IMG/VR virus record: IMGVR_UViG_3300044858_003017
DNA length: 64,000 nucleotides
Source: a virus
Strand: one strand, 5' to 3'
In this document: one piece after another, positions 9,322-63,339 of the stretch
Numbering within the stretch: the first letter of the stretch is position 1
How the letters are laid out: each line of letters starts with the position of its first letter
The notes under the pieces: generated by a model
Told to the model about the DNA's origin: nothing
Databases searched by the model: none
Seen by the model: only the letters and a program-made list of their open reading frames with translations
Translations under genes and position numbers: made by a program

Positions 9322-10992
9322 TTAAAGCGTGTTAAGACCGTGAACGTATACTTTTCCGTAGAATTCAGGACGAACTACTTTCTTCGCGTAACGTGTCATA
9401 ACACCTTTACGTGGAGTGAAGTTCACTGGATCGTATACAAGCGGAGTCATAATCAACGGAATATATGGGCTAAATACAGCACCTGTTTCAAGGAACTGTG
9501 CACCACGGAATCCCATAAGGATTACATTCTCTAACATGTATGGGTTTTTGTATACTGTATAACGGTTGTTAATTGAACCAATTTTTTGAACACCAGCAGC
9601 AAATTCCATTTTAGTTCCATCTGTATCTGCAGCAAATCCTGGGATAGACTCAAGGATAGTTGCAACTGCAGGAGAAGTTACTAAGAAGTTAGCACCACCA
9701 CGTAATGTTTTTTGGTGAATTTTATTAGATACTTTTTGAAGTTTGGTACCTAAAGTTTGGAACCAACCACCTTGAGTGTTATAGAAACCATCACCAGCTA
9801 AACCAGGTGTTCCTGCGCCTACTTGAGTGAATCCAGTTCCATTCCAGATGTTGTTGTTTAATGCTGACCAATACTCAGTTGTTGGAGCTGCTGAAATCAA
9901 CATATCAAGGATTTCAAGATCGATTTCCATTGATACATATTCAGACAACATTGAAGTCAATTCAGCTTCGGCATCAATTGAGTGGTATGCATTTAAATCT
10001 TGAGCAAATTCAGGTGTCCAAACTGCTTTCAACTTACGTGTTTTAGCAACGATTGGTTCTGATTGCATTTCAAGGTTAATTTCTGGGATATCGATATCCG
10101 TACCATCATCAATACCTGTATTAGTTCCAGATCCTTTGAATGGATTTTTATCTTCAAAATCACCACGTGTAATATCGGTAGGTTGTTTGCTATAGTTCAA
10201 GCTAAAGTTAGATGCACTAATTGCAAGTTGAATAGCAGTAGCTTGAGTGGTTGTTACAACAAATGATGCAGTGTAATTACTGTCAATTGTTGAAAATGCT
10301 TGAATTGGGATAATTTCAGTACCAGTTGAACCAGAAGCAAATGTCCATGAACGTACTGCATATAAATCAGCATCAGTTGGAACATTAACGCTAACTAATT
10401 TATAGCTAGATAACGCAGTGGTAAAATTACCGTCAAAATTTACAGATCCAGAACCTGGAGCAGATCCTGTTGCCGCATTAGCACTTGACGCTACGGTAGT
10501 ATAAGGAATTGAATATCCAAAACGACCTGCACCATAAAGACCGCCAGCTGCATCACTACCAGTTGTAGTAACACCAAACATTGAATCTAATGCGTTAGGA
10601 TTTCCAAATGGATCACCTGTTCTGTTATTATTATCATCATTAAATCCTGGAACTGATGTACCATATTTGAAATCAAGATAGAAAATAAGACCTGATGGCA
10701 AATTCATTGGTTGAACTGAAACGAATTCTTTTGCTGCAAATTCAGCAAAAATACGACGTACCAATGGAAGTGCTACACCTGCCCACTCTTCTGAACCAGC
10801 TTGTGTACCTGTTCCAGATGATTCTTTTACTAATTGACGTGCTTGGTTTTCAAGCAATTGTGCCATTCCGGCTCTTTCGGTCTCACCACGAAGACCTTCT
10901 AATAGACCTGTTCTTTCCCACTTTGCAGATAAAGCTTTTGCATTGTTTCTTTGAACAAAGTCATTTGTTTGAAGTAAGTTTGAAATACTCAT
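9322..10992 (-). CDS. gp23: Major capsid protein (T4 gp23-like)
   Basis: LLENQA, LPLVRR, VSVQPMNLPSGLIFYLD, AKTRKLKAVWTPEFAQDLNAYH, PYIPL, FTPRKGVMTRYA; likely start MSISN at 10992 after AAAGGA. Confidence 0.96.
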   Translation of the reverse strand: MSISNLLQTNDFVQRNNAKALSAKWERTGLLEGLRGETERAGMAQLLENQARQLVKESSGTGTQAGSEEWAGVALPLVRRIFAEFAAKEFVSVQPMNLPSGLIFYLDFKYGTSVPGFNDDNNNRTGDPFGNPNALDSMFGVTTTGSDAAGGLYGAGRFGYSIPYTTVASSANAATGSAPGSGSVNFDGNFTTALSSYKLVSVNVPTDADLYAVRSWTFASGSTGTEIIPIQAFSTIDSNYTASFVVTTTQATAIQLAISASNFSLNYSKQPTDITRGDFEDKNPFKGSGTNTGIDDGTDIDIPEINLEMQSEPIVAKTRKLKAVWTPEFAQDLNAYHSIDAEAELTSMLSEYVSMEIDLEILDMLISAAPTTEYWSALNNNIWNGTGFTQVGAGTPGLAGDGFYNTQGGWFQTLGTKLQKVSNKIHQKTLRGGANFLVTSPAVATILESIPGFAADTDGTKMEFAAGVQKIGSINNRYTVYKNPYMLENVILMGFRGAQFLETGAVFSPYIPLIMTPLVYDPVNFTPRKGVMTRYAKKVVRPEFYGKVYVHGLNTL

Positions 10993-11024
10993 CGTTTTTC
11001 CTTTGTTTTTGTTTTTTTTTTGTT

Positions 11025-12158
11025 TTACAATAATCCTGCTAATTTTTTCCATCTGTTAGCTAATTCGAAGCCTTCAGATAAAACTTGTGTTGTTTCCACT
11101 CTAGGAGCGGTTGTTGTTGTCGGTCTTGAAGCATAAGATTCTTTAACCACTCGTTTTTTGGTAGGACGTTTAAAACTTTCAGCCAATGTAGCAAAAACTA
11201 ATTTTGCTTCACGTGTATTTGCTGCCCTATCAAAATTTTCGATAACTTTCATTTTTTGCGGTTCTGATAACTCAAAATTACGGAACAATTTGTTTGTGTA
11301 AAGAAGTTTTGCATTAAGTAAATTTACTTCATTGATAACTGATTGAAGATGTTTAACTGTGCGATATGCTTCTTTAAGTTCGTCTTCTTTAGCTGTCAAT
11401 TCATCTTCCATTGCTTCCATCATTTCATCTTTGTCTTCTTCAGACATAGTGTTTGGATTCATTTTCATTGATGTGTCTGCATCTTCTTCTTCACGCAAAA
11501 TTGCTTCAATAATTTCTTCTAATGCTGCATCAGACATTTCGTCGCCTTCGGTTGCCATTTCGTCTGAATCGCCCATCATGTCGTCTTCAGTCAATTTTCT
11601 TGAACCTTTGCCAATTTTTGAAGAAGTTAATTTTTTATACCCTTCCATAGGCATTCCCATATCATCTTCTTCTTCATCATAGCCTTCCATAGCCATTTCG
11701 TCTGATTCTAGATCGCCTTCTAACTCACGTAAGATTGATTCAATATTTAAATCATCGCCTTCGTTGTATTCAGCAGTCATTTCTTCATCAGATACTGGTT
11801 GTTCTTCAGCTGGCATTTCTTCTCCACCCATTTCATCACCTGCCATTCCTACTTGAAAAGAATAATCATTACCACCAACTGATGCTGATAATGTATCATC
11901 TGTCCAAGTAAAATCATCATCACCCTCTACTTCTGCACCTGCTTCCGCACCCATTGCGTCTGTTTCTGGACCAGCTACAGCACCTGCGTCTGTTGCTACT
12001 TCTTCGCCATCAATTTCGTTTTGCAATTCTTTTGCTAACATTGCTTCTACTCTTGGACGAAATGCTTCTTGTAAAGCAATTTTTGCGTTTGCTAAAGCAG
12101 TTTCTTTAACAGCTTTTGCATCAGCGATTGCCTCTTTTAGCAAATCTGATTTTGCCAT
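11025..12158 (-). CDS. Prohead scaffold/core protein (gp22-like)
   Basis: Very acidic, coiled-coil, many L/I/MxE sites, directly upstream of MCP; AAGGAG RBS. Confidence 0.8.
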   Translation of the reverse strand: MAKSDLLKEAIADAKAVKETALANAKIALQEAFRPRVEAMLAKELQNEIDGEEVATDAGAVAGPETDAMGAEAGAEVEGDDDFTWTDDTLSASVGGNDYSFQVGMAGDEMGGEEMPAEEQPVSDEEMTAEYNEGDDLNIESILRELEGDLESDEMAMEGYDEEEDDMGMPMEGYKKLTSSKIGKGSRKLTEDDMMGDSDEMATEGDEMSDAALEEIIEAILREEEDADTSMKMNPNTMSEEDKDEMMEAMEDELTAKEDELKEAYRTVKHLQSVINEVNLLNAKLLYTNKLFRNFELSEPQKMKVIENFDRAANTREAKLVFATLAESFKRPTKKRVVKESYASRPTTTTAPRVETTQVLSEGFELANRWKKLAGLL

Positions 12159-13215: not shown

Positions 13216-13593
13216 TTATCCAACTTTAAAATAACGATTTAAACCTTGGCCAATATTTTCATATGCCATGCTTAAACGTTCTTGCAAACGAGCCATTTCC
13301 TTTGCAGTGTCTTCAAACATTCTATAATCTTCTTCAAGTCGTTTAAAGTTTTTCTTGTGTGCAATTTCATTAAACCAATCAGCATCTTCTGTAACTATGC
13401 GTTGTGCTTTTTCTACAATGTCTCTTACTCGCTCAGACAATTCATGTAAATCTGCCTTTCCATATACAGATTCTCCCATTGCTGTAAAATTTGCTACCGC
13501 TTCCGTAAATGCTTGTTTTTCTTCTTTCGATAACGGTTGTTGATGATCACCATTAATGGTTTCAATCAAATATTTAAGTGTGAATTGTTTCAT
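13216..13593 (-). CDS. Hypothetical head-module protein
   Basis: Helical 125 aa, TAATG-coupled to protease; leader ends LIE. Confidence 0.65.
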   Translation of the reverse strand: MKQFTLKYLIETINGDHQQPLSKEEKQAFTEAVANFTAMGESVYGKADLHELSERVRDIVEKAQRIVTEDADWFNEIAHKKNFKRLEEDYRMFEDTAKEMARLQERLSMAYENIGQGLNRYFKVG

Positions 13594-14225
13594 TATATTA
13601 TCCTACATTTACCATCTTCACATAAAATTGAAGTAATGATTTCGTTTGTTTTTACGTATTTATTTGTTGTTATATTTTTATTTACAGATTCATTCATGTG
13701 CGTAGGGCGCATAAAAGCCCCATGGGTTGAAGGATTAGATACGAAGTCCCAACATATCAATTCAAAATCTTCTTGAACTTCTACAGTGCCTTCACTTCGC
13801 AATTCTTTAACAGAACCCAATCCGCGCGATGAAATTCCCAAAGTAATTCCTGCTCTAAAAAGTTCTTTAAGAATCTTACCAGATGGTGTATCTAAAACTT
13901 GTACAGCTCCGTGCAAGTCATCGCCTTTCCACCAAATTCTTAAAACATTGTGAGAAACATTGTTTAAGTTTACAACAGATGATTCTGGATGATCTAATTC
14001 CCCCAATGCTCTATGTTGATTAATATATTCGGTTTGATAGCGTTGACATTCTCTTTCTAAAATATGTTTTGGATATATTCTACCATTTTGATTTTTAGAA
14101 CCAGCTCGTTGCAAAACACCTTGTACAACAAATCCTCCTGGTATTCCATATGTTGCACCATTTGATTCAGTTAATGAACCAACAGGTTTAAATGGAATAT
14201 ATTCTACTATTAGTTGTTTTGACAT
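13593..14225 (-). CDS. gp21: Prohead protease (T4 gp21-like)
   Basis: NQNGRIYP, ALGELDHP, VSH, TPSG, GISSRGLGS, DFVSNPS. Confidence 0.95.
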   Translation of the reverse strand: MSKQLIVEYIPFKPVGSLTESNGATYGIPGGFVVQGVLQRAGSKNQNGRIYPKHILERECQRYQTEYINQHRALGELDHPESSVVNLNNVSHNVLRIWWKGDDLHGAVQVLDTPSGKILKELFRAGITLGISSRGLGSVKELRSEGTVEVQEDFELICWDFVSNPSTHGAFMRPTHMNESVNKNITTNKYVKTNEIITSILCEDGKCRII

Positions 14226-31102: not shown

Positions 31103-31639
31103 TTACCAATCAACCATAACCATTTTATCGTTCCATAACATAATATTATCTGATCGAAAATCTAGATCTAGATCAAATTCTTTTATATTTAATTTTTCAA
31201 CATCCGATTGTAATGCAGTTAAAAAATTATCCATTAATGGATCTATAGTATCCGTTTCTTGAATAAAATCAAAGATAGAAACTTCTCCGCCTTTTTCTCT
31301 AGCAAACGAATAAAAATCATCCATGAACATATCAATTACTTTACGTAAACGATCCGGCAATTCAGATGCATTTGCCATTATATACATATTTTTTCCATCA
31401 ACATAATATACCGGAATAAACGTTGTAAATTCAGTATATCGATTTACGATAATATTTGCAACTTTATATTCATCCTGTTCTTGCGTAATTTTAAAAGTTT
31501 TATCTTCGCCATCAATTTCATAAACACGACCATTATCACCAGCACCAATTAATCGAAATTGTTTGTTTTGTATCTTATCTAAACAACGTTGAATATCAGA
31601 TTGCGATAATTCTTTAAGTAAATTTTTTAAACGTATCAT
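31103..31639 (-). CDS. Protein-kinase-fold protein with MIRLKNLLKE leader
   Basis: IGAGDNGRVY Gly-loop, FKIT, DFRSDNIM catalytic loop, MVD. Confidence 0.65.
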   Translation of the reverse strand: MIRLKNLLKELSQSDIQRCLDKIQNKQFRLIGAGDNGRVYEIDGEDKTFKITQEQDEYKVANIIVNRYTEFTTFIPVYYVDGKNMYIMANASELPDRLRKVIDMFMDDFYSFAREKGGEVSIFDFIQETDTIDPLMDNFLTALQSDVEKLNIKEFDLDLDFRSDNIMLWNDKMVMVDW

Positions 31640-49207: not shown

Positions 49208-50233
49208 TTATTCTAAAATTAATTGAGTATTTTTACAATATTCAAAATTTAAATTGGTCAATGCTAATTCTTTTGCTTTTGCTTCAACCATAACATCAAG
49301 ATCAGCTACACCATACGTGTCTGGAAGCCGTGTAATATAATCGGCATGAGCCTGCTCCTTGATCTTGGTAAACTCCTTGTATTGTTTGTGAAAGGTAGGC
49401 CAATTGGGCAAGTCGGCAATGTCAATACCATGATGTTCAAACATACGCTCAATAAGAATCTGTGCTTCGCGTCGCCGGGACTCGCTGTAATGGGTACATT
49501 GAGTAACACCATGACGCTGCCAAGTCTCACGAGCCATAAAGAATGCTTCTTGTTCGGTCAGGTCACCGGTATTGAAAGTGTGATGCCAATAATCAAATGT
49601 AATCGGTATAGCAATCTCGGCATGTAACATTTCATACAACTCACGCACCGAATACATAGATGCCTTATCATCATTCTCAATAACCAAACGCGCCTTGCAA
49701 GAATCTGATAAACGATCATAGTTATGCAACCACCGTGCAATAGTACCAGGCTTATCATTGTAAGTAGCACCAACATGAATATTGATCTTGTTCTCAAAGC
49801 TAGGTGCAAAGCCCATCATATCAAAGAGCTCGGAATGCCGTTCGAGGCCAATAATAGAATTATCAACAACTACCGCATCGGGGCTACCAAGAATATGAAA
49901 TGGACCAGGATGCGTTGTAATGCGATGACCATGTGCCTTTGCATAATCACCTGCGGCACGAAGATGCTGAGCAATAAGATCGATGTCGGGCAAATCTTCA
50001 AGACGATAATGATTCCAACGCGGAAACAACTCGGAGCCTAAACGAAACAATCGTATACCATGTGCTTCATTCCATTGCAGAATAGTTAATAAATCACGAG
50101 CATTGGCAAGTGCAATATCAGATGCAAGCCGTAAGCCACCTAGTTTGAATTTGCGATCAATCATGGCACGTCCGGTACGAATACCTTGGGCGGATAACTC
50201 CATGTTGATACAAGCATAACCGAAACGAATCAT
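49208..50233 (-). CDS. uvsE: UV-damage endonuclease
   Basis: GYACIN, FRLGSELFP, HPG, NIHVG, ENDD, FDYWHH, HYSES, AHAD, MVEAKAKELA. Confidence 0.93.
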   Translation of the reverse strand: MIRFGYACINMELSAQGIRTGRAMIDRKFKLGGLRLASDIALANARDLLTILQWNEAHGIRLFRLGSELFPRWNHYRLEDLPDIDLIAQHLRAAGDYAKAHGHRITTHPGPFHILGSPDAVVVDNSIIGLERHSELFDMMGFAPSFENKINIHVGATYNDKPGTIARWLHNYDRLSDSCKARLVIENDDKASMYSVRELYEMLHAEIAIPITFDYWHHTFNTGDLTEQEAFFMARETWQRHGVTQCTHYSESRRREAQILIERMFEHHGIDIADLPNWPTFHKQYKEFTKIKEQAHADYITRLPDTYGVADLDVMVEAKAKELALTNLNFEYCKNTQLILE

Positions 50234-50247
50234 ATATGTTTTATTTT

Positions 50248-50308
50248 ATATTATGTAAAAAAAGTGAAAAATCCAAATAACATTATTTTTTTTTGCGTGA
50301 TATTTATA
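50248..50308. promoter_or_regulatory. Divergent promoter block: TTGGAT-N17-TAATAT (minus, uvsE) and late ATATTTATA (plus)
   Basis: 50248-50276 and 50300-50308; block repeated at 51383-51445. Confidence 0.65.
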
Positions 50309-50323
50309 TGTAGTAAAAAGGAT

Positions 50324-50845
50324 ATGATGATTAAATTAAAAAATTTATTAGCAGAAAACATGTTTCGATTTGGAACCAAAAATATTTCTGAATCGGCAGT
50401 ACGACAAAAATTAACAGAAGATTCAAATAGAAATATATTAATACTAACAATCTATTTGCCGCAACGATTAAATCCTACAACAAAACAATTAGAAGATGTA
50501 AAAGTTGGAACATGCAAATACGTATCTGTTGCTAGCAAATCGCCAGATGATACAACAGGTAAAGGTCTTACGACCGATGAATATGCAGGAATCAAAGGCC
50601 TTTTTATTAATGGAATTAGTGCAACACAAGTTACGAGTAAAAAAGATCCGTCGACGGGTAATATCTCAGGTACATTTACATTGACTGACAAAATTTATGA
50701 TTATTTAAAAGATTTTGTAGGGAAGCCAGCATCGGTTAAACAATCAGTGTATGGAAATGTTACTTTAGCCACCGGTGGTACTGAAGTTAAATATGCATCA
50801 TGGACTGTAGCAAAATATACAATACAAACTACAGCACCAAAATAA
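50324..50845 (+). CDS. Putative capsid-cargo protein (LLAENMxRFxTKN leader)
   Basis: Start MMIKLKNLLAE after late motif and AAAAGGA; leader shared with 51495..52811. Confidence 0.65.
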   Translation: MMIKLKNLLAENMFRFGTKNISESAVRQKLTEDSNRNILILTIYLPQRLNPTTKQLEDVKVGTCKYVSVASKSPDDTTGKGLTTDEYAGIKGLFINGISATQVTSKKDPSTGNISGTFTLTDKIYDYLKDFVGKPASVKQSVYGNVTLATGGTEVKYASWTVAKYTIQTTAPK

Positions 50846-50863
50846 TAAAACAAATAAACACAT

Positions 50864-50888
50864 AATGGGGGCCGAAGCCCCCATTTTT
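50864..50888. terminator. Terminator between convergent genes
   Basis: AATGGGGGC-CGAA-GCCCCCATT-TTT. Confidence 0.85.
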
Positions 50889-50889
50889 A

Positions 50890-51354
50890 CTAATTATTAA
50901 TATTAATTTTTACGCCAAGTGGCCATTGTATAACACGTTCATAAAATCCGCCTTCTAGATCATATACAAATGTATACATAAATATATTGCTTTCTACATC
51001 TAGCCAAATTTCGGTTTCGTTGGCACCATCTTGCAGTTTGACAACATACTCCCAATGATCAAATTCTGTTTTATATTGTGGCGTTAATTGTTCCATTGCA
51101 ATGATTGCCGCTTTGCCGGTTAATTCGTTTGCATAATATACGCGAACTTCCATGAGTTCAAAATCCATAACATAATGTGCATCTGTATCTTCATATGACA
51201 TTGTATCTGGACTATAAATTGCACTATCTAACGGAACTCGTGAAAATGTATGCGATTCAATAAATTTTGAAAAATATACATCAACAGACTTTGGTAAATC
51301 TTGTGCAAATGCTACATTACATAACAAACTGGCAACAATCAATAAACGTTTCAT
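50890..51354 (-). CDS. Secreted/periplasmic protein
   Basis: Signal peptide MKRLLIVASLLCNVAFA/Q; acidic beta-rich mature part. Confidence 0.7.
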   Translation of the reverse strand: MKRLLIVASLLCNVAFAQDLPKSVDVYFSKFIESHTFSRVPLDSAIYSPDTMSYEDTDAHYVMDFELMEVRVYYANELTGKAAIIAMEQLTPQYKTEFDHWEYVVKLQDGANETEIWLDVESNIFMYTFVYDLEGGFYERVIQWPLGVKININN

Positions 51355-51382
51355 AACTGGTTAATTTTTTAATTATATTTGT

Positions 51383-51445
51383 ATAATATGAAAATGTTTG
51401 CATGAATCCAAATATATTATTTTTTTTTTTTGATCGATATTTATT
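51383..51445. promoter_or_regulatory. Second divergent promoter block: TTGGAT-N17-TATTAT (minus) and late ATATTTATT (plus)
   Basis: Near copy of 50248-50308. Confidence 0.65.
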
Positions 51446-51494
51446 ATTGTAACATTGAAATATATATATTAGAAACCATAAAGGAATAAAAAAC

Positions 51495-52811
51495 ATGAAT
51501 TTAGAACGTTTATTAGCCGAAAACATGATTCGGTTTAACACAAAAAATTTGAATGAACATCAAATTAGAAAATTATTAAATGAACAATTGTCAGTTAGTG
51601 GAACCCCAACTTCAGGCCTTCCGGTAATTAACCAGTTTGCAAATGATTCGTCACTTTGGGGCCCAGGGTTTACGGGAGCATATAATACAACTAAAGCGCT
51701 TTTAACTAGAAACAAAGTACCGTTTGCCGTAGGCACCGATTTGGCGGCAGCTTGGATTCAAATAATTACCAATATAAACAATAACCCAGGAACTGGCAAG
51801 GCTAAGTCAATAGAAGATTTTAAAAACTTTATGGAGTTAAATACAACTCCGCCGGCTTTTACATCTAACGAAATTCAATTAAATGAATCTCCAGATGTAA
51901 AAGGAAAAGTATTAACTTCGGGCATTATAACAAAAACAAGCAAAACTGGCGAACAGCCAGGTGAAGCTTCAGATATTAATGATATTGTACAATTTTGTAA
52001 TGATTATAATTTAAATGATATGGTCAAAGGTATTACATCACTTAAGACATTGATAAAGTTTAATGTTATACAGATAGTACCGTATTCAACGAAGAACAAA
52101 TATATTATCAATGCAGCTCAGAACTTTGTGGCTGGAGATACAAGATCAACGCCGGGAGCTGGTAGTTTAATAGTTGAACCTAACGAAATGAACAATCCAT
52201 GCATATATTCGTTAACAAAGTATGAAGCAGCAGCCGCTCAGTCCGTAGGAAAACAAATAACAACAATTACAGTTACTCCAGGACCAGTAGTTCCAATTGA
52301 TGCAACAGATGCATTTGAAGTATTAAAAACACAGTTATCTACTAAAGGAACAGAAGATATTACAACTGCAGTTGCAGGATTATCCAAATTGGGAAAAATA
52401 ACAGGCGTGTCAATCGAATCTGCTGCGTCATTTGATGAGCCGGTTAAATTAGATAATGCTGGATTTGCAAAGCAATTAGGTTTACAACCAAATCAAGTAC
52501 CGGCAGATCCAACTAAAGATGCGGAGGGTGAAGTAAAAGATCCAATGTCAGGAGGAAATGCATTTTTAGCATATCAACGAGGTCAAGCATTAAAAAATTT
52601 AATTACTAATTTGATTCCAGGTGTTACCCCTACCGTAACTGCAAAGGTTGCAAAAGGCGGGGCTGCAGCTCGATATGCAAAAGTTAACATAACAGTACAA
52701 AAACCTGATGGTACAACAGAAATTACTTCGGATGATTTAAATACACAAGGCATTGGAAGTAAAACTACTAGTGGCGAAGGTACATTTAAAATATATCGAT
52801 ACGATTTTTAA
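51495..52811 (+). CDS. Putative capsid-cargo protein with C-terminal OmpA-like domain
   Basis: LLAENMIRFNTKNLNE leader; F...K..L....I...VSIESAAS...NAFLAYQRGQALKNLI...RYAKVNI resembles OmpA_C. Confidence 0.6.
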   Translation: MNLERLLAENMIRFNTKNLNEHQIRKLLNEQLSVSGTPTSGLPVINQFANDSSLWGPGFTGAYNTTKALLTRNKVPFAVGTDLAAAWIQIITNINNNPGTGKAKSIEDFKNFMELNTTPPAFTSNEIQLNESPDVKGKVLTSGIITKTSKTGEQPGEASDINDIVQFCNDYNLNDMVKGITSLKTLIKFNVIQIVPYSTKNKYIINAAQNFVAGDTRSTPGAGSLIVEPNEMNNPCIYSLTKYEAAAAQSVGKQITTITVTPGPVVPIDATDAFEVLKTQLSTKGTEDITTAVAGLSKLGKITGVSIESAASFDEPVKLDNAGFAKQLGLQPNQVPADPTKDAEGEVKDPMSGGNAFLAYQRGQALKNLITNLIPGVTPTVTAKVAKGGAAARYAKVNITVQKPDGTTEITSDDLNTQGIGSKTTSGEGTFKIYRYDF

Positions 52812-52832
52812 TTGTATAGATTTTAATTAAAT

Positions 52833-52860
52833 AATAGGGTGAAGAAATTCACCCTATTTT
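52833..52860. terminator. Terminator between convergent genes
   Basis: AATAGGGTGAA-GAAA-TTCACCCTATT-TT. Confidence 0.85.
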
Positions 52861-52861
52861 A

Positions 52862-53437
52862 CTATCCTTTATAAGGCCTTTCCAATTGTTTATATGGATC
52901 TTTATAAAATCCTAAATGAAAAATACAATATACGTTTTTATATGTTCCGTAGTCTAAAATATTAATTGAAATGGCACCAAACTTATTTAAAATAATATTT
53001 AAATTAACGCCAGATATTTCTATTCTAGAATTAGTATTCGTTGCAGTTAAAATGGGGGCTTTCATTGTCTTGTGATGCCATTCTGAATGAATCCATTGTT
53101 GTATACACGAATCAATAATCATTTTATATAGATCTTGAGTAACATCTTGACGAATTCCACATACTCCCACAATTAATTCAGTCCCAGGCATATAATTAAT
53201 TCTATGACCCCATAGTCCGTTATCAGCTAAATAATCATTTTGCGTTTTGGCAGTTACATAATAATTTTCTTCCCAAACATATGAAGCTTCGCCTAAACTA
53301 TTTCTATATGCATTTACTGAATCAAATATTTGTTTAGCTAATTGTTTATCTGCATAATACGATTGGCATTTACCAACTTTAATTTGTGCATTTACGAAAA
53401 ATGCTACTAAGACAAATAACAATGCCAACTTTTTCAT
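52862..53437 (-). CDS. Secreted CAP/SCP-domain-like protein
   Basis: Signal peptide ...FFVNA/Q; IFDSVNAYRNSLG, QWIHSEWH. Confidence 0.7.
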   Translation of the reverse strand: MKKLALLFVLVAFFVNAQIKVGKCQSYYADKQLAKQIFDSVNAYRNSLGEASYVWEENYYVTAKTQNDYLADNGLWGHRINYMPGTELIVGVCGIRQDVTQDLYKMIIDSCIQQWIHSEWHHKTMKAPILTATNTNSRIEISGVNLNIILNKFGAISINILDYGTYKNVYCIFHLGFYKDPYKQLERPYKG

Positions 53438-53470
53438 AACTTAAATCTTTAACTGGTTAATTATATTACA

Positions 53471-53499
53471 ATAATATGAAATATATATTTAATATCCAA
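53471..53499 (-). promoter_or_regulatory. TTGGAT-N17-TATTAT promoter
   Basis: Exact 17-nt spacer upstream of CAP-like gene. Confidence 0.65.
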
Positions 53500-53506: not shown

Positions 53507-54067
53507 TCAATCTTTTTTTATGAATCCATTCAAGAAATCTCGCTGACGTTGGATTGCATCTTCGAGTTTAGAATCTCCTCGTTTTTTTCTAGCTCCTGTA
53601 TTATTTCCATTAGCGCTAGATTTAACAGCATCTTTTCTCGTATTGTTAGATCGGGTTGATTTGATTGCTTTAGAATTTGATGTAGATATGCGTTTGCTAC
53701 TGTCAGACTTGCTTCTGCTTTCATCTTCTGTCCTTCGGGTGTCTGTAAAAAGCTCTGTATATGTGCTTGAATGTCCGGTTTGGATGCGTGTCCTGATTTC
53801 ATCTTGTCCAATAGATCTTGTTTCATCGACATCGATGCATCCTGTTGTATACGCAGTTTTATGCCCTTTGATTGAAATGCCGCACGGATACCTTGTATCA
53901 TTCGATTCAACCATGTATTGAACGCCCCAACCCGTTTCTTTAGTGTGTTTAACATAACCATATTTTTTTGCACCTAACCAAGTAAAGAATACTGCATCGC
54001 CCGTTTTAAATTGTGATTTGCTAAACTGTTTGATGATAGCATCTGGTGCTGTTTGTTTTTTTGCCAT
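53507..54067 (-). CDS. Hypothetical protein (SH3/KOW-like N-terminus, basic disordered C-terminus)
   Basis: FKTGDAVFF..LG.KKYG.V...Y.V. Confidence 0.6.
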   Translation of the reverse strand: MAKKQTAPDAIIKQFSKSQFKTGDAVFFTWLGAKKYGYVKHTKETGWGVQYMVESNDTRYPCGISIKGHKTAYTTGCIDVDETRSIGQDEIRTRIQTGHSSTYTELFTDTRRTEDESRSKSDSSKRISTSNSKAIKSTRSNNTRKDAVKSSANGNNTGARKKRGDSKLEDAIQRQRDFLNGFIKKD

Positions 54068-55932: not shown

Positions 55933-55961
55933 AATATAATAAAATAGATTGAAATATCCAA
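55933..55961 (-). promoter_or_regulatory. TTGGAT-N17-TATATT promoter for 55899-53507 operon
   Basis: Exact 17-nt spacer. Confidence 0.65.
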
Positions 55962-58191: not shown

Positions 58192-60036
58192 TTATATTTT
58201 TTTTACTCCAACATGTATATGATTTTCATGATCACCCTCAGGTGTACGCCAACCAAATTGATAACGATATCCATTTTTATTAATATTTATCCATTTTCCT
58301 GGTTTATATTCTGGATGTCCCATCCAATCCATCAAATGTGCAAATAATTCGTCACCTCGTTTATAATTTTCTTCATTTGGCGTACCAGTAGCTAAATCGA
58401 CTGCATATGCATCGTTATTACCTTCCCAATGATCTGATGTATTTCCTGAATTTGTTTTTACTTTGCTTCGTTTTTGTGAAGATATGATATTTTTGCCCAT
58501 AAATTCTTTTGCAACTTTGGCAACTTCTAAAGCTCGTCCCATCGAACCGCCCCAATCCCCATCAGTTCCACCGGTAACAACTTTTCCAGAATCAACATCG
58601 CCAATTGGAAATCCATATGTTTGTGCAGCATACGCTCCGCCAGATGCTATAGCACCCATAACGCCAGGAATAACGCTTTTTACAGACTTTACAGCTTTGC
58701 CCCATAATGACGTATTTTCTGTATCATCGCTAGATTTTTCACCTTCGATATTATTAGGATCATATGAATTAGCATATTGTTCAGCGTAATCCATTCTTTT
58801 TTTACTTATGACTGCAGGACGTTCAAATTTTCTAGCAAATTGTTCTGCTGCATCTCTCGGATCCGTTGTAGATTTTAAAAATGATACTAATGTTTTAAAT
58901 CTAGAAGTTAATTCATCCCATAAATATTCCAATTGCATATCAATATCATTCACAGGTTTACCAACAGATTTTGCATGAGCAAATAATGCAGTTTTGTTAG
59001 TTGCATGCCATTGCACTAAACCATATGAAGTTCCTTTATCTCCCTCTGCACCTGGATTAAAATTTGATTCAACGCGCATATTGCCAACAATTCCAGCTGC
59101 ACCCGCTACGGTTAATCCATTATCAATAAAAAATTTCATGATATTTTGCCACTTACCTGGTTCTGCCTTCGGAAGATCAGATTCATCATCTGATGTTGAT
59201 ATTGTTGATTTCTTTTGTTTAATAATATTCAATGCAGACAATGTTTTTGACGTAATTGTACCTGTAGCTATTAAATTAAATTTTTTCTGAAAACGCTTTA
59301 ATGATTGTTTTGTAGTACTACCTATAGTACCCGATTCAATTTCTTCTGGATTAATATGATATCCCAAATCCTCCAATTGTTTTTGTACATTTACAATTGA
59401 TGAATTTGTTTTATTTTTTGTATCATCATCTGTATCTAAAAGTTTTTCTATGTCTTGACGTTTAACATCAAATTCTTTTAATATGTATTGGAGTAAAATT
59501 TTTGCAGCTTTTGAATGACCTTGTGAACTTAAATTAATTCCATTTTTCGCAAAATATATATCTGAGTTCATAATGCGGTCAATATCAAGTACAAAATCAG
59601 CGTTCGACTGCCGAATCCAATCATTGATATCATCATACATTGATTGTCTAGTTTCTAACTTATCATCTTTCAACTTAGTAAATTCAAGAGTAGGTAGTGT
59701 ATTTAATACAATAGGTACATTTACTTGATTGGCTCGTTGAATTGCAATTTCTAAATTTTCAATTGTTATGTATGAAGATACTTCTTCATGTCCATTACAA
59801 TATAAAACTACTAAATTAAATGTATCATTAACATTGGATTCTAATGAATCTAATAATTGTTCTGAATTTGCATTTGTTTCAAACACCTCATCTTCAGCAA
59901 CAATAATTCCAGACTTAGCTAATTTTTTATTAAAAGCCCACGGCTCAGAAAGATCTTCATCTCCAACAAATAAAACATTGATTGTTTTATCGGTAGGCGA
60001 ATCATTATCTTCTAACAACAATTTTAAACGAATCAT
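58192..60036 (-). CDS. Multidomain cell-wall hydrolase: degenerate SGNH-like, PG-binding, phage tail lysozyme, M15-like peptidase
   Basis: VQKQLEDLGY..G.IG..T..SLKRFQ; AAGIVGNMRVESNFNP..GD.GTSYGLVQW; SDH..G..AVD...HENHIHVG; start MIRLKLLLE. Confidence 0.75.
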   Translation of the reverse strand: MIRLKLLLEDNDSPTDKTINVLFVGDEDLSEPWAFNKKLAKSGIIVAEDEVFETNANSEQLLDSLESNVNDTFNLVVLYCNGHEEVSSYITIENLEIAIQRANQVNVPIVLNTLPTLEFTKLKDDKLETRQSMYDDINDWIRQSNADFVLDIDRIMNSDIYFAKNGINLSSQGHSKAAKILLQYILKEFDVKRQDIEKLLDTDDDTKNKTNSSIVNVQKQLEDLGYHINPEEIESGTIGSTTKQSLKRFQKKFNLIATGTITSKTLSALNIIKQKKSTISTSDDESDLPKAEPGKWQNIMKFFIDNGLTVAGAAGIVGNMRVESNFNPGAEGDKGTSYGLVQWHATNKTALFAHAKSVGKPVNDIDMQLEYLWDELTSRFKTLVSFLKSTTDPRDAAEQFARKFERPAVISKKRMDYAEQYANSYDPNNIEGEKSSDDTENTSLWGKAVKSVKSVIPGVMGAIASGGAYAAQTYGFPIGDVDSGKVVTGGTDGDWGGSMGRALEVAKVAKEFMGKNIISSQKRSKVKTNSGNTSDHWEGNNDAYAVDLATGTPNEENYKRGDELFAHLMDWMGHPEYKPGKWININKNGYRYQFGWRTPEGDHENHIHVGVKKI

Positions 60037-60380: not shown

Positions 60381-61478
60381 TTATTGTTTAGTAAATATGA
60401 TTCGCAACATATTCCATTTAATAGAAATGTTTTGATTTTTTTCTAAAGCTTGTTTAATTTTGTTGGTTTGCATTTTATCAAATTCAATTGTATAATTAAC
60501 CATTTTAATAACTGGCAAATCTGCTTCAATTGCCAAATTAGGTTTATTAGAAATTTCATCAAACGTTAAATCAAATTTAGATCTGCCAATCATTTTATTT
60601 ATTGGTTCGAACGAACTACCAACTTCATATTCTAATTTATAAACTGCAGTTTTATTTGTTTTCTTGTTATAAACTCGTACGGTTGAATCTGATTTTTTCT
60701 TGATAACAATATTATCTAATACTGCTGATTCGTTTAATTGATTTTTACGATTTTCTAATATCCAATCTTGTCCTAAAAGATTGCCATTAACTCGATTCCA
60801 AAATGATTCAGTCATTGCATCTTTTGGAGTATCATATGCAGCATCATATGTTTCTACACCAGTTGCATTGAATCCAAACGCATGCGTTTCATCATCGCCA
60901 TATTCATCCAATGATGCCATATCATCTACGCCTTCTTTTACATCTTCCCCTGGTTCATACCATTTGCCATCACCATCGCTATCTTGCCAACGTGGTTCTG
61001 ATGTACCTGACTTCGACGGTTTACCATATCCCGCAGATCCGGTTTTATCTTCACGCTTAGCACGTTTCAATTCACGTCCTTTTTCACCCATTTGTTTTCT
61101 AAGTTGCTTTTCGCGTTCTGGACTTAAATTAGAATCTTTATAATACTGATGTTTAAGATCGGCAATCTCTTTTTCCAATTTAGCAATCTTAGCTTTAACA
61201 GCATCAGCTGAGCCAAAATATTTAGAAAATTTTGTTTTAGCAGTTTTTTGATCTATGTCAGATAATTGATTGTATATGTTTGTTAATTTAGTTTTATCAT
61301 AAACATGATTATCTCGTTCATGTTGTTTAACTGCATATTCTAAATCACTTAGTGATTTTTCTGATTCAGATAAATTAGTTCTATGAGTTGCAATTGCATC
61401 CTTAAGGGTAGGCAAAGATCCATCTGCCTTACGTTCCCAGGCATATCCTTCTAATAAAATATCTTTAAGTTTTTTCAT
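60381..61478 (-). CDS. Modular putative capsid-cargo protein
   Basis: MKKLKDILLE leader, many LxE-type sites, WQDSDGDGKWYEPGEDV motif. Confidence 0.65.
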   Translation of the reverse strand: MKKLKDILLEGYAWERKADGSLPTLKDAIATHRTNLSESEKSLSDLEYAVKQHERDNHVYDKTKLTNIYNQLSDIDQKTAKTKFSKYFGSADAVKAKIAKLEKEIADLKHQYYKDSNLSPEREKQLRKQMGEKGRELKRAKREDKTGSAGYGKPSKSGTSEPRWQDSDGDGKWYEPGEDVKEGVDDMASLDEYGDDETHAFGFNATGVETYDAAYDTPKDAMTESFWNRVNGNLLGQDWILENRKNQLNESAVLDNIVIKKKSDSTVRVYNKKTNKTAVYKLEYEVGSSFEPINKMIGRSKFDLTFDEISNKPNLAIEADLPVIKMVNYTIEFDKMQTNKIKQALEKNQNISIKWNMLRIIFTKQ

Positions 61479-61515: not shown

Positions 61516-62382
61516 TTATTCTGCTGATGCATACGTTCCATTAGGCAATTTTACAGCTACACCATCTCGAACCAATGCATCCCAAACCTTAGCGGCATCT
61601 GCAGATTGATAATCATCTGAATATAGACGTTTACCTTGGCTTTGCAATTTGCGAATCATGAAACGGTATAATCCTTTGCCAATACCTTGATTGCGAAAAC
61701 GATCATATAAAACGGTTTCTTTAACTTTATATCCATCCTGCACGGGACGTAAACGGAATGCACCCATACGTTCCGAATCATAATAAGGAACAAATACTAA
61801 TAGTCCGTTTACTTCCATGTTTTTAATTTTGATTTTGCTAGTATCAATAGTATCGGCAACACCAGTAGCATCAGCCGTACTTTTTCTAACCAACCACAAT
61901 TTATCACGTTCCATTAATATTGTATAACCAGCAGACATAATTTCCGCTGCATGTGCATCTAGCAATGCTTTATATATACGTGTCTTTTGTTGAGTCCTAG
62001 ATTGAGTTGTATCATACCCTGCAACATCAACAGCTGTTGGAGCATATATACGGATAAATGATAACAATGCTTCCTTAGACGTTGCCATTAAACGCATATA
62101 GTTTAGTTGTCCTGCACTACTACTTCGTTCATGGGATACTGTCCAATCCGTACCACCCCAGCCCGTATCATGTGCAGGAGTCATAAAAGCAAATACATAT
62201 TCTTTTCTATCTGGAGATTGATATCCCGTATCTTTCGCAAACGTAAATGTTACGGGAACTCTATCACAATATACAGTATCTTCATATGCACCATTTCCAG
62301 CATCTGCCCAAGTAAATGAATTGGCATATGGAGTTACGCCACTCAAAGAAATTTCTTGAAGAATATGTTTTAGTTGTATCAT
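61516..62382 (-). CDS. Leader, unknown domain and GNAT acetyltransferase-like domain
   Basis: MIQLKHILQE; FRNQGIGKGLY acetyl-CoA motif A; SDDYQSADAAKVWDAL. Confidence 0.7.
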   Translation of the reverse strand: MIQLKHILQEISLSGVTPYANSFTWADAGNGAYEDTVYCDRVPVTFTFAKDTGYQSPDRKEYVFAFMTPAHDTGWGGTDWTVSHERSSSAGQLNYMRLMATSKEALLSFIRIYAPTAVDVAGYDTTQSRTQQKTRIYKALLDAHAAEIMSAGYTILMERDKLWLVRKSTADATGVADTIDTSKIKIKNMEVNGLLVFVPYYDSERMGAFRLRPVQDGYKVKETVLYDRFRNQGIGKGLYRFMIRKLQSQGKRLYSDDYQSADAAKVWDALVRDGVAVKLPNGTYASAE

Positions 62383-62720
62383 GATTTTTTAATGAATGTA
62401 ATAGTAGTAGGAAACTCAGTGAGTTCAATTTCTGATTCTCCGTCTTTGATTGCATTAATCAATTTATTGAGTTTAGCTAAGCTTAATTTTTGTTTTTGGT
62501 CTTGATTAGTCGATACAAAGTATTTACCATCTTCTTTGTATACGGCAGTTATGCCAACGTCACCGGAATAAACCAACGGAATATCAATTTTAACTTTGTA
62601 TCGCGCGGTATTACCACCCCACGAAGCCTCAACCGGTCCACCCGATTGCGTATTCACGGCTCGCAAGGTAACGCCATTAATGTTAATTGATTCAGTCAAT
62701 AAAGATTTTAATCGTATCAT
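62379..62720 (-). CDS. Putative capsid-cargo protein
   Basis: MIRLKSLLTE leader directly after late motif. Confidence 0.65.
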   Translation of the reverse strand: MIRLKSLLTESININGVTLRAVNTQSGGPVEASWGGNTARYKVKIDIPLVYSGDVGITAVYKEDGKYFVSTNQDQKQKLSLAKLNKLINAIKDGESEIELTEFPTTITFIKKS

Positions 62721-62838: not shown

Positions 62839-63339
62839 TTATCGTCGACCCGTAGCTATGTTAGCTCGGACCAACCATAAACCAGAACTCGTATCAAGAA
62901 CCCGATATCCCGCGACGGTGATGCGAGACATATTATCAGCTAACAAGGCACGATATATACGAGTCTTTTGAGCATCCTTGCGAACATTGGCAGTATCAGA
63001 ACCCGTTATGTCGATTGATGCGGGTTGCCATTGTGTTGCAAAATCAATGAGGGCTTCCGTCACCGTTGACATAAGGCGCAGGTAATTTACTTGTCCCGCC
63101 GCCGCGCTTTTGTCGTGCGCCACGGTAACATCTTTGCCGTCTTGGGTAGGCGTCAGTATGGCAAACGCCCATTGTTGATGTCCTTGGTACACCATTGCTA
63201 GCGTGATGCGATGTCCATCTGCTTGGAATACCGTTTCTCGAGATTCTCCATCTGTTGTGCGCGACCAAGTAAATTGTGTGACGTATGGGGCAACTCCGCC
63301 TAAAGTAATTTCCGTAACGAGCTGTCGTAATCGTATCAT
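62839..63339 (-). CDS. Putative capsid-cargo protein, paralog of N-domain of 61516..62382
   Basis: MIRLRQLVTE; shared AGQ.NY.RLM.T..EAL and QKTRIY.ALL...AGY...LWLVR. Confidence 0.7.
   Translation of the reverse strand: MIRLRQLVTEITLGGVAPYVTQFTWSRTTDGESRETVFQADGHRITLAMVYQGHQQWAFAILTPTQDGKDVTVAHDKSAAAGQVNYLRLMSTVTEALIDFATQWQPASIDITGSDTANVRKDAQKTRIYRALLADNMSRITVAGYRVLDTSSGLWLVRANIATGRR

What the first reader, a model, noticed from the sequence alone, without database searches (positions are those of the whole stretch)
50234..53499. Duplicated convergent cassette: late putative cargo protein paired with an earlier-expressed secreted protein
Seen: the only two credible plus-strand genes form a twice-repeated unit: late motif, gene with LLAENMxRFxTKNxxE leader, terminator, convergent signal-peptide gene, TTGGAT-N17 promoter. 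The divergent promoter blocks are near copies (ATCCAAATA..ATTATTTTTTTTT..GATATTTAT at 50271 and 51406) and both secreted genes have TTAACCAGTTA upstream, yet gene bodies are unrelated between units. The second cargo has an OmpA-like peptidoglycan-binding region; partners are an acidic secreted protein and a CAP-like protein. Inference: polymorphic pairs where a virion-delivered envelope protein is matched by a periplasmic partner made early in infection, as in effector-immunity or lock-and-key superinfection exclusion. I do not recognise this as a described system.
Basis: partly seen in the sequence, partly recalled or inferred. Interest (0 to 1): 0.8.

Follow-up and report, generated by a model that had tools for sequence, protein, structure and literature searches.

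The report
Phage cargo genes paired with secreted partners
An uncultured T4-like phage of Bacteroidota carries two gene pairs, each joining a late virion "cargo" protein (with a removable head-targeting leader) to an early exported protein; the same pairs recur in distant phages, which points to an undescribed matched system, perhaps one that blocks a second infection.

Summary
At 50234-53499 the only two credible plus-strand genes each have a late-type promoter motif, a shared N-terminal leader and a hairpin terminator. Each faces a convergent signal-peptide gene with an early-type promoter.

The leader (LLAENMxRFGTKNLxE) heads more than 1,200 protein clusters with mostly unrelated bodies. 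It always ends in [LIVM]-x-E, the cleavage rule of T4-type prohead proteases, and the phage encodes such a protease (Peptidase_S77). I read it as a capsid-targeting propeptide, as in the T4 internal proteins (about 0.7).

Both pairs are conserved modules.
- **Module L:** the cargo2 family (OmpA-like peptidoglycan-binding C-terminus) with a secreted CAP-domain protein. It occurs in two to three phage lineages.
- **Module S:** cargo1-like small beta-sandwich proteins with an SP154/SP140-family secreted protein. It occurs in two lineages.

The lineages use different leaders and have different flanking genes, so the two gene types do not assort independently.

The effector/antidote or superinfection-exclusion reading is the most economical but is untested. 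The nearest precedents are T4 gp5-Spackle and T5 pb5-Llp. The one complex prediction gave no answer. Leader-bearing genes at other loci have no secreted partner.

The leader itself was already flagged elsewhere in this scan on the same genome (e1-5828835). Novelty: a new variant of a known kind.

The parts
49208..50233 (-). UvdE UV-endonuclease gene, the conserved left flank of the variable locus
   Evidence: Pfam UvdE, E 1.3e-58. It holds the same flank position in about 14 related phages.
50262..50307 (.). Divergent promoter block 1. It holds TTGGAT (50271-50276, minus strand, serving UvdE), a T-run, and the late-type motif GATATTTAT (50299-50307, plus strand).
50324..50845 (+). cargo1, 173 aa. 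Residues 1-32 are the leader or propeptide (50324-50419). The predicted mature protein starts at D33 and is a small beta-sandwich.
   Evidence: Leader. L30-x-E32 is conserved (E32 invariant, L30 in 90% or more) at the leader/body junction, even in homologues with other leader types. AF2 pLDDT is 69.5, with only generic Ig-like matches.
50864..50885 (.). GC-rich hairpin between the convergent genes, a probable two-way terminator
50890..51354 (-). SP154, a small acidic exported protein. The signal peptide probably ends at AFA|QD. It belongs to the SP154/SP140/SP138 family.
   Evidence: Translation; mature pI 4.27; hhalign against the SP140 family gives probability 88.5%, E 2.7e-6.
51354..51444 (.). 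Divergent promoter block 2. It holds TTAACCAGTTA (51354-51364, minus), TTGGAT (51406-51411, minus), a T-run, and GATATTTAT (51436-51444, plus).
51495..52811 (+). cargo2, 438 aa. Residues 1-30 are the leader (51495-51584). Then come a helical N-domain and a beta middle domain. The C-terminal OmpA/MotB-like peptidoglycan-binding domain covers about residues 283-438 (52341-52808).
   Evidence: 52 homologues. L28 is nearly invariant and E30 invariant; D314, N355, L358 and R362 are invariant. AF2 pLDDT is 81.7. Foldseek PDB hits are SiiA, OmpA, TssL, MotB and Pal PG-binding domains, best E 6.5e-4.
52833..52858 (.). Hairpin between the convergent genes, a probable two-way terminator
52862..53437 (-). 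SP191, an exported CAP/SCP-domain protein. The signal peptide probably ends at VNA|QI.
   Evidence: Pfam CAP, E 7.6e-5, above the cut-off. Five of its 16 homologues carry precomputed PF00188, and several share contigs (by longest-contig length) with cargo2 homologues. Partners of the long leader proteins in related phages score CAP down to E 1e-13.
53438..53499 (-). Promoter and 5' leader of SP191: TTGGAT (53494-53499), a -10-like AT-rich box, and TTAACCAGTTA (53450-53460)
53507..54067 (-). Conserved right-flank gene (186 aa, unknown function)
   Evidence: Same position in related phages; no Pfam or PHROG hit.
13593..14225 (-). T4 gp21-type prohead core serine protease, the presumed enzyme that removes the leaders
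   Evidence: Pfam Peptidase_S77, E 1.6e-32. It is present in the related genomes that carry leader genes.

Best explanation
The region is a hypervariable locus of a T4-like-head myovirus of Bacteroidota. It holds two conserved two-gene modules.

**The late gene.** In each module the plus-strand gene makes a protein with an N-terminal propeptide of about 30 residues.
- I read this propeptide as a capsid-targeting signal. It would load the protein into the prohead and then be cut off by the phage's gp21-type (Peptidase_S77) protease after [L/I]-x-E.
- The predicted final cuts are after E32 in cargo1 and after E30 in cargo2.
- The mature proteins would travel in the virion and leave it at infection. 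cargo2 would then bind peptidoglycan through its OmpA-like domain.

**The early gene.** The convergent minus-strand gene has a host-type (TTG...-10) promoter. It makes a Sec-exported periplasmic protein: a CAP-domain protein for cargo2 and a small acidic protein for cargo1.

**How the two would meet.** One partner is made early and exported. The other is made late and stays in the cytoplasm or the virion. The simplest meeting point is the periplasm of an already infected cell, when a second phage delivers its cargo. The exported protein would then bind and neutralise the matching cargo, giving superinfection exclusion or protection from lysis from without.

**Shown:** the anatomy, the leader family, the [LIVM]-x-E rule, the protease gene, the folds, and the conserved pairing.

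**Inferred:** packaging, cleavage, delivery, early timing, and any binding or exclusion.

**Sub-odds:**
- leader is a cleaved head-targeting propeptide: about 0.7
- the pairs are functionally coupled: about 0.6
- the coupling is exclusion or neutralisation: about 0.4
For: **Leader family**
- A degenerate DNA scan of IMG/VR gave 56 loci, nearly all true N-terminal leaders.
- They yield 51 unique proteins in at least 31 unrelated body clusters.
- A profile search of 1.84 billion representatives found 1,207 clusters at E<=1e-3; among the 150 best listed the match is nearly always at residues 1-35.
- The invariant residues use many synonymous codons (Arg uses all six), so selection acts on the peptide, not the DNA.

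**Cleavage logic**
- All 51 of 51 leaders have [LIVM]-x-E within 18 residues after RF, against a background of 0.24 within 25 residues. The 15 that lack the canonical KNLxE all have a downstream substitute.
- The same holds for 146 of 146 in the profile-search hits, though the search profile itself includes the KNLxE position, so only the 5 compensated exceptions add weight.
- Body homologues with other leader types keep L-x-E at the junction: E32 invariant and L30 nearly so in cargo1, E30 invariant and L28 nearly so in cargo2.
- Peptidase_S77 is encoded in the window and in the related genomes.
- The MCP keeps a [VI]-x-E|[AS] site across three lineages.
- T4, phiKZ and SPN3US proteases all cut after Glu. 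T4 capsid-targeting sequences are 10-20 aa propeptides (PMC5694885).
- T4 internal proteins are diverse and share only the capsid-targeting sequence (PMC3012670).

**Late expression**
- ATATTTAT lies upstream of 35 of 50 leader genes, mostly 20-50 nt from the start, and upstream of genes in the structural part of the window.

**Pairing**
- The layout UvdE< [LEAD> SP<] x1-2 occurs in about 14 phages.
- Long leader proteins pair with CAP proteins and short ones with other secreted proteins.
- A cargo2 homologue (E 2e-36) with a different leader faces a CAP protein in another lineage with different flanking genes.
- Cargo1-like bodies face SP140/SP138-family proteins in a jumbo-phage lineage.
- Units with similar leader-protein bodies also have similar secreted partners. 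The 2x2 table is 7/2/8/103, Fisher p 3e-6, not corrected for phylogeny.

**Envelope target**
- cargo2 has an OmpA-like fold.
- The few Pfam hits among 130 leader proteins are LysM, Lcl_C and Fib_succ_major, apart from one marginal Snapin_Pallidin match.
- A 614-aa window protein with the short leader carries Phage_lysozyme2 plus PG_binding_1.

**Precedents**
- T4 Spackle, an early periplasmic protein, inhibits virion gp5 lysozyme (PMC7677548).
- The T5 Llp gene is adjacent to the pb5 gene (PMC9586334).
Against: - There are no proteomic, expression or binding data. The phage is uncultured, and no phage in INPHARED carries the leader.
- Most leader-bearing genes lie elsewhere in the genomes, on the majority strand and without a secreted neighbour. 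An antidote is therefore not a general need of leader cargo.
- In the jumbo-phage lineage the hot spot holds 1-3 secreted genes against 1-2 leader genes, and the SP140 family faces several cargo body types.
- Charge complementarity, seen in both window pairs, is not general (rho -0.07).
- T4-type internal proteins go to the cytoplasm with the DNA. A head-packaged protein that acts in the periplasm of a myovirus host would be unusual.
- Glycan- and PG-binding bodies would also fit proteins on the outside of the virion.
- The conserved adjacency could stem partly from tight linkage inside a cassette.
Confidence: 0.42

Rival explanations
1. **Linked but non-interacting accessory genes.** The locus is a recombination hot spot. 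Late leader-protein genes and early secreted-protein genes accumulate there side by side. They face each other only because the two temporal classes are kept on opposite strands. Conserved cassette ends cause them to be exchanged together. One end is the promoter block plus leader codons. The other is the promoter, the TTAACCAnTTAAA element and the signal-peptide codons.
For: - The number of units is variable and their order can be swapped.
- The promoter blocks are near copies and the leader codons are shared.
- Counts are not 1:1 in the jumbo lineage.
- Leader genes elsewhere have no partner.
- The T4 internal-protein locus is a known plastic region whose genes share only the capsid-targeting sequence (PMC3012670).
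Against: - The same family-to-family pairing (cargo2 family with CAP; cargo1-like with SP154/SP140-like) recurs in lineages with other leader types, other flanking genes and only 31-34% identity. Chance co-location in a hot spot does not predict this.
- In L010 the unit order is swapped but the pairs stay intact.
Confidence: 0.25
2. **Receptor-masking pairs of the T5 Llp/pb5 type.** The leader proteins are adhesin-like virion proteins that bind envelope glycans or peptidoglycan. The leader would be an assembly or attachment signal, or it would be removed before display. The early exported partners modify or mask the host structure that these proteins bind, rather than binding the cargo itself. 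This would stop progeny and superinfecting phages from wasting themselves on infected cells and debris.
For: - The bodies look like binding modules: Ig-like beta-sandwich, OmpA-like, and LysM or lectin-like.
- The T5 Llp gene is adjacent to the pb5 gene. Llp is made early and protects against adsorption to infected cells and lysis fragments (PMC9586334).
Against: - The strict [LIVM]-x-E rule at the leader/body junction points to processing inside the prohead.
- Peptidoglycan is not exposed on a Gram-negative surface.
- No tail-fibre or receptor-binding fold was found.
Confidence: 0.15
3. **Joint role at cell exit.** The peptidoglycan-binding late protein and the periplasmic partner cooperate during lysis or release, for example in envelope disruption or in anchoring debris. 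They would not act at entry.
For: One partner is late and binds peptidoglycan, and the other is already in the periplasm. The two would meet once the inner membrane is breached.
Against: - The locus is far from the lysis genes.
- The leader with its protease sites is unexplained under this reading.
- The partners belong to opposite temporal classes.
Confidence: 0.05

Closest known systems
T4 internal proteins IPI/IPII/IPIII and Alt with their capsid-targeting sequence (CTS), processed by the gp21 prohead protease
   Same: - A short conserved N-terminal leader sits on otherwise unrelated, fast-evolving proteins.
- The genes are late.
- The leader ends in L/I-x-E.
- The phage has a gp21-family (S77) protease and a Gp23-type capsid.
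- The genes lie in plastic regions (PMC3012670, PMC5694885).
- The first 10 residues, MIKLKNLLAE, match in length and style the short leaders on other window proteins.
   Different: - The leader here is 20-32 aa with an extra invariant core (LAENMxRF..KNL) and up to three cut sites.
- The family is far larger, with more than 1,200 clusters.
- Several bodies bind peptidoglycan or glycans, whereas T4 IPI inhibits a cytoplasmic restriction endonuclease (PMC3012670).
- No sequence similarity to the T4 CTS was shown.
- Packaging and cleavage are untested.
T4 Spackle (gp61.3) against the gp5 tail lysozyme
   Same: An early, signal-peptide-bearing periplasmic phage protein neutralises a virion-delivered, peptidoglycan-directed protein of a superinfecting phage (PMC7677548, PMC7650644).
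   Different: - From my own knowledge, not checked here: the sp gene and gene 5 are not adjacent in T4.
- gp5 is a tail-spike enzyme (PMC7677548, PMC7650644), and I know of no report that it carries a capsid-targeting propeptide.
- The partners here are a CAP-domain protein and a small acidic protein with no likeness to Spackle.
- No inhibition has been shown.
T5 Llp lipoprotein next to the receptor-binding protein pb5 (oad); Cor of T1/phi80
   Same: The gene for an early exported protein lies directly beside the gene of the late virion protein whose action it blocks. It protects infected cells and progeny (PMC9586334).
   Different: - Llp acts on the host receptor FhuA, not on the virion protein.
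- Llp is a lipoprotein, whereas the proteins here have SPase-I-type signals.
- pb5 is a tail-tip protein without a propeptide.
Polymorphic toxin/effector-immunity cassettes of bacteria (conserved trafficking N-terminus, variable body, adjacent immunity gene)
   Same: A conserved N-terminal delivery module sits on variable bodies, with an adjacent small partner gene, in hypervariable loci.
   Different: - No toxin domain was found.
- The partner is exported and convergent rather than co-transcribed.
- Most leader proteins have no partner.

Membership tests
T4-type capsid-targeted (CTS) head proteins | Short N-terminal propeptide shared by unrelated late proteins | tested here: met
T4-type capsid-targeted (CTS) head proteins | Propeptide ends at a prohead-protease site (hydrophobic-x-Glu), and the phage encodes a gp21-family protease | tested here: met
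   [LIVM]-x-E is present in 51 of 51 and 146 of 146 leaders, with compensating sites where the canonical one is missing. The junction L-x-E is conserved, with E invariant. Peptidase_S77 is encoded.
T4-type capsid-targeted (CTS) head proteins | The protein is found inside the capsid and the propeptide is removed in the mature virion | not testable with these tools
   This needs virion mass spectrometry. No cultured phage in INPHARED carries the leader.
OmpA/MotB-like peptidoglycan-binding domain (cargo2 C-terminus) | Beta-alpha-beta-alpha-beta-beta fold resembling solved OmpA-C, MotB or Pal domains | tested here: met
   The top Foldseek PDB hits are nearly all PG-binding domains: SiiA, OmpA, TssL, MotB, Pal and TagL. 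Probabilities are mostly 0.8-1.0, TM by target is mostly 0.45-0.59, and the best E is 6.5e-4.
OmpA/MotB-like peptidoglycan-binding domain (cargo2 C-terminus) | Conserved Asp, and an N-x-x-L-x-x-x-R motif that contacts the peptide stem | tested here: inconclusive
   D314, N355, L358 and R362 are invariant, with OmpA-like spacing for N..L..R. However, a 40-residue insert separates D314 from N355, and Pfam OmpA gives no hit.
CAP/SCP/PR-1 superfamily (SP191) | Match to PF00188 above the curated cut-off | tested here: met
   24.0 bits against a cut-off of 21.1. Partners in related phages score 27-53 bits.
Superinfection-exclusion pair (Spackle/gp5 or Llp/pb5 type) | Early expression and export of the blocking protein | tested here: inconclusive
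   Signal peptides with the Bacteroidota-type A|Q site are present. The promoter is TTGGA-N17-19 plus an AT-rich -10, of the kind also seen at UvdE. There are no transcript data.
Superinfection-exclusion pair (Spackle/gp5 or Llp/pb5 type) | The blocking protein binds or inactivates the virion protein or its target and excludes a second infection | not testable with these tools
   This needs binding and infection assays.
Conserved gene-pair module (functional linkage by neighbourhood) | The same two families stay adjacent in divergent genomes with different contexts | tested here: met
   Module L. Module S.

The most novel reading that the evidence does not exclude
T4-like phages of Bacteroidota run a modular delivery system. 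A universal, protease-removable leader loads hundreds of different proteins into the capsid. A subset of these cargo proteins acts on the cell envelope. Each of that subset is matched by a cognate periplasmic antidote made early in infection. This would amount to polymorphic effector-immunity pairs that decide which phage wins when several attack one cell.
Probability: 0.3. Interest if true: 0.8.

Novelty: new variant of a known kind. Interest (0 to 1): 0.68.

Why it matters
**Scale of the leader family.** If the leader is a capsid-targeting propeptide, then more than 1,200 protein clusters of unknown function become candidate virion-delivered proteins. The T4 internal-protein principle would then extend to a large environmental phage group.

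**A usable tag.** The leader would also be a defined tag for loading foreign proteins into such capsids, as was done with the T4 capsid-targeting sequence.

**A new exclusion pair.** The conserved pairing with exported CAP-domain and small acidic proteins would add a class of phage exclusion or antidote pairs. It would also give bacterial and phage CAP-domain proteins, whose function is largely unknown, a testable partner.

**Directly testable.** The predictions are concrete:
- cleavage after E32 in cargo1 and E30 in cargo2
- presence of the mature proteins in virions
- binding of each cargo to its cognate secreted partner

Tried and rejected
**Complex prediction.** Mature cargo2 (33-438) with mature SP191 (19-191), each with its alignment, gave no answer: score 0.00, controls not run. 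This is neither for nor against binding.

**Searches with no result**
- DNA and protein searches of INPHARED phages with the region, with cargo2 and with a canonical leader found no match.
- Pfam and PHROGs gave nothing for cargo1, cargo2 or SP154.
- A literature search for the string LLAENM found no paper.
- Viral-contig relatives of SP154 by single sequence: none.

**Weak or uninformative fold and profile results**
- The ESM Atlas for SP154 returned only unnamed Bacteroidota clusters.
- For cargo1, Foldseek and VIA-align gave only generic Ig-like matches (Z at most 6.1).
- hhalign of the cargo2 family against the 500-aa and 400-aa leader-protein families gave probability 8-18%. However, a BFVD hit to an uncharacterised 514-aa phage protein (E 1.3e-10) hints at a shared architecture.

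**Ideas tested and dropped**
- Charge complementarity between partners holds for both window pairs but not across 16 units.
- The leader as a DNA- or RNA-level element: rejected because the invariant residues use many synonymous codons.
- The leader as a Sec, Tat or T9SS signal: rejected because it is amphipathic and charged, has no hydrophobic core, and T9SS needs an N-terminal Sec signal.
- The 69-aa ORF at 51317-51541 (minus strand) that looks like a signal-peptide gene is an artefact lying across the promoter block.

Full report
**Setting.** The window is part of an uncultured myovirus with a T4-type head module.
- The major capsid protein is of the Gp23 family (PF07068; 57% identical to Flavobacterium phage vB_FspM_immuto).
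- It also encodes a portal, a large terminase and a baseplate wedge protein.
- A gp21-type prohead core protease (Peptidase_S77) lies at 13593-14225.
- There is no tRNA gene and no whole genome is held.
- Almost every gene is on the minus strand.

**Check of the observation.** The only plus-strand ORFs that do not lie inside longer minus-strand genes are 50324-50845 (cargo1, 173 aa) and 51495-52811 (cargo2, 438 aa).
- Both begin with M..L..LLAENMxRFxTKNxxE. A six-frame search finds this motif nowhere else in the window.
- Each is preceded by GATATTTAT. This motif occurs 9 times in the window against 3.35 expected. Eight of the nine lie upstream of genes on the coding strand, including the head-tail adaptor homologue and genes beside the baseplate wedge homologue.
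- Each is followed by a GC-rich hairpin (50864-50885 and 52833-52858).
- Each hairpin is followed by a convergent gene with a classic signal peptide. These are SP154 (50890-51354; mature pI 4.3) and SP191 (52862-53437; CAP PF00188 above the cut-off).
- The two intergenic blocks are near copies.
- TTAACCAGTTA is exact only in front of the two secreted genes.

Two corrections are needed. The minus-strand promoter of the first block serves UvdE, not a secreted gene. The TTGGAT-N17 promoter type also occurs at 55961, 30452 and 13214, so it is the phage's general non-late promoter.

**The leader is a very large family.**
- A degenerate DNA pattern for LLAENMxRF found 56 loci in IMG/VR. Nearly all are N-terminal leaders followed by TKNLxE.
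- The 51 unique proteins fall into at least 31 unrelated body clusters.
- A profile of 46 leaders (A2) hit 1,207 clusters at E<=1e-3 among 1.84 billion representatives. Among the 150 best listed the match is almost always at residues 1-35.
- Near-complete relatives carry three to five leader genes scattered over the genome.
- The invariant residues (L, A, E, N, R, F) use many synonymous codons. Arg uses all six, so selection acts on the peptide.
- Neither Pfam nor the literature search knows the motif.

**What the leader is.** Three lines of evidence point to a propeptide removed by the prohead protease.
1. Every leader ends in [LIVM]-x-E.
   - In the IMG/VR set this holds for 51 of 51 within 18 residues, against a background of 0.24 within 25 residues. 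The 15 leaders without the canonical KNLxE all have a substitute a little further on.
   - In the profile-search set it holds for 146 of 146. That profile includes the KNLxE position, so only the 5 compensated exceptions add independent weight.
2. Homologues of the cargo1 and cargo2 bodies sometimes carry quite different leaders.
   - Examples are MKKIIRLTExDLxRIVKRVIxE, MKxFIISEQEKQRILEMHQ..YLME, MNRSYSKIRHIQEANLMLESRR..HLLME and MKRIKLFEAWVxxQALNE.
   - L-x-E at the junction is nevertheless conserved: E32 is invariant and L30 nearly so in cargo1, and E30 is invariant and L28 nearly so in cargo2.
3. The genomes that carry such genes encode Peptidase_S77 wherever they are complete enough to judge. 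The capsid protein keeps a [VI]-x-E|[AS] site at the expected maturation point in three lineages.

This matches what is known from other phages. The T4, phiKZ and SPN3US proteases all cut after Glu. T4 capsid-targeting sequences are 10-20-residue propeptides. Extra sites within propeptides are common (PMC5694885). The T-even internal proteins are a diverse set that shares only the targeting sequence (PMC3012670).

The late-type motif ATATTTAT precedes 35 of 50 leader genes. I confirmed five of them by pattern search, at 31639, 60036, 62382, 62720 and 63339. The protein at 60036 carries Phage_lysozyme2 plus PG_binding_1. The first 10-11 residues of cargo1 fit this short leader, so the long leader looks like an extension of it.

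**The proteins.**
- **cargo2.** It has 52 homologues without annotation. The AlphaFold model is good (pLDDT 81.7). Its C-terminal domain, about residues 283-438, matches solved peptidoglycan-binding domains (SiiA, OmpA, TssL, MotB, Pal, TagL). D314, N355, L358 and R362 are invariant in OmpA-like spacing, but Pfam OmpA does not score.
- **cargo1.** It folds as a small beta-sandwich with only generic Ig-like matches.
- **Other leader proteins.** Of 130 tested, four had a Pfam hit: LysM, Lcl_C and Fib_succ_major, which are glycan or wall binders, plus one marginal Snapin_Pallidin match.

**The pairing is conserved.**
- In about 14 related phages the same interval between UvdE and a conserved 186-194-aa gene holds one or two units of [leader gene >, signal-peptide gene <].
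- Long leader proteins (334-625 aa) are always followed by a secreted CAP-domain protein, with Pfam E down to 1e-13. Short ones are followed by other secreted proteins.
- In L010 the unit order is swapped but the pairs stay intact.
- Units with similar leader-protein bodies also have similar secreted partners. The 2x2 table is 7/2/8/103, Fisher p 3e-6, not corrected for phylogeny.

Both modules also recur outside this clade, which is the stronger argument.
- **Module L.** A third lineage has different flanking genes and a different leader. Its 405-407-aa proteins match the cargo2 profile over the whole body (E 2e-36 and 4e-31). They again face a CAP protein that is 31-34% identical to SP191.
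- **Module S.** In a jumbo-phage lineage (contig of 272 kb, with its own S77 protease) cargo1-like bodies carry two other leader types. They face SP140/SP138-family secreted proteins.
  - The SP154-like proteins relate to the SP140 family by profile comparison (probability 88.5%, E 2.7e-6).
  - The cargo1 profile reaches the small bodies of that lineage, with E from 5.9e-27 to 0.013 in a 16-sequence set.
- L088 and L089 repeat the window's layout with two and three units.

**Limits.**
- Leader genes at other loci lie on the majority strand and have no secreted neighbour.
- In the jumbo lineage the hot spot holds 1-3 secreted genes against 1-2 leader genes, and SP140 faces several body subtypes.
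- Charge complementarity is not general.
- The single complex prediction gave no answer.
- Early timing of the secreted genes is inferred only from their promoter type and strand. The promoter is TTGGA-N17-19 plus an AT-rich -10, as at UvdE, and several secreted genes share a TTAACCAnTTAAA element.

**Most likely mechanism.** I read both modules as a late, head-packaged, protease-matured protein that acts in the envelope, matched by an early periplasmic protein.
- One partner is exported early. The other is made late and stays in the cytoplasm or the virion.
- The simplest place for them to meet is the periplasm of an already infected cell that is hit by a second phage.
- This is the logic of T4 Spackle against gp5 (PMC7677548) and, in gene arrangement, of T5 Llp next to pb5 (PMC9586334).

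My odds are about 0.7 that the leader is a cleaved head-targeting propeptide, about 0.6 that the pairs are functionally coupled, and about 0.4 that the coupling is exclusion or neutralisation. The rivals are linked but non-interacting cassette genes (0.25), receptor masking for adhesin-like virion proteins (0.15) and a joint role at lysis (0.05).

**Novelty.** The principles are known: a targeting propeptide on diverse cargo, and an early exported protein that blocks a virion protein. New here are the size and form of the leader family, its occurrence in T4-like phages of Bacteroidota, and the conserved convergent pairing of OmpA-like cargo with CAP-domain proteins and of small beta-sandwich cargo with small acidic secreted proteins. 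I found no paper describing them. The leader itself was noted independently elsewhere in this scan on the same genome (e1-5828835, e1-5828823, e1-5828815).

Noticed in passing
window 31103-31639(-), 58192-60036(-), 60381-61478(-), 61516-62382(-), 62379-62720(-), 62839-63339(-): Five proteins start with a 10-aa MIxLKxLLxE-type leader (MIRLKNLLKE, MIRLKLLLE, MIQLKHILQE, MIRLKSLLTE, MIRLRQLVTE), found by pattern search. A sixth, at 61478 (MKKLKDILLE), is listed by note e1-5828835 but did not match my pattern. The 614-aa protein carries Phage_lysozyme2 plus PG_binding_1. They look like further capsid-targeted cargo with the short form of the leader.
   Followed up: partly
window 51354-51364 and 53450-53460 (-); also L003, L005, L007, L013, L048 upstream of secreted genes: A conserved TTAACCAnTTAAA element lies between the -10 box and the start codon of many secreted-protein genes of the locus. 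It may be a 5'-UTR or operator element.
   Followed up: partly
L072-L081, L091-L093; P0039, P0046, P0075-P0081: At least four other N-terminal leader types end in L/I-x-E and sit on the same or related bodies. They are MKKIIRLTExDLxRIVKRVIxE, MKxFIISEQEKQRILEMHQ..YLME, MNRSYSKIRHIQEANLMLESRR..HLLME and MKRIKLFEAWVxxQALNE. Leaders seem to be exchangeable between phage lineages.
   Followed up: partly
L075-L081 (for example L079:273-2315): In the jumbo-phage lineage the secreted/cargo hot spot lies directly beside a 679-aa ClpA/ClpB-like AAA+ gene. The S77 protease lies about 12 kb away on the same contig.
   Followed up: no
L033:6542-7153: The secreted partner of a 296-aa leader protein is a DUF2927 protein (E 2.6e-27), a different partner family at the same locus.
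   Followed up: no
window 9322-11052(-): The Gp23-type capsid protein is long (576 aa). The Pfam Gp23 match starts only at residue 227, so there is an extended or inserted N-terminal half. A conserved [VI]-x-E|[AS] site near residue 77 (LVKE|S) is the likely maturation cut.
   Followed up: partly
BFVD entry A0A6J5PZN2 (514 aa, uncultured Caudovirales): This is the best viral structural match to cargo2 (E 1.3e-10 over 493 columns, 15% identity). It suggests that the roughly 500-aa leader proteins share the cargo2 architecture despite having no detectable sequence similarity.
   Followed up: no
window 51317-51541(-): A 74-aa ORF (69 aa from its first ATG) with a hydrophobic N-terminus lies across the promoter block and the start of cargo2. 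It is almost certainly not a gene.
   Followed up: yes
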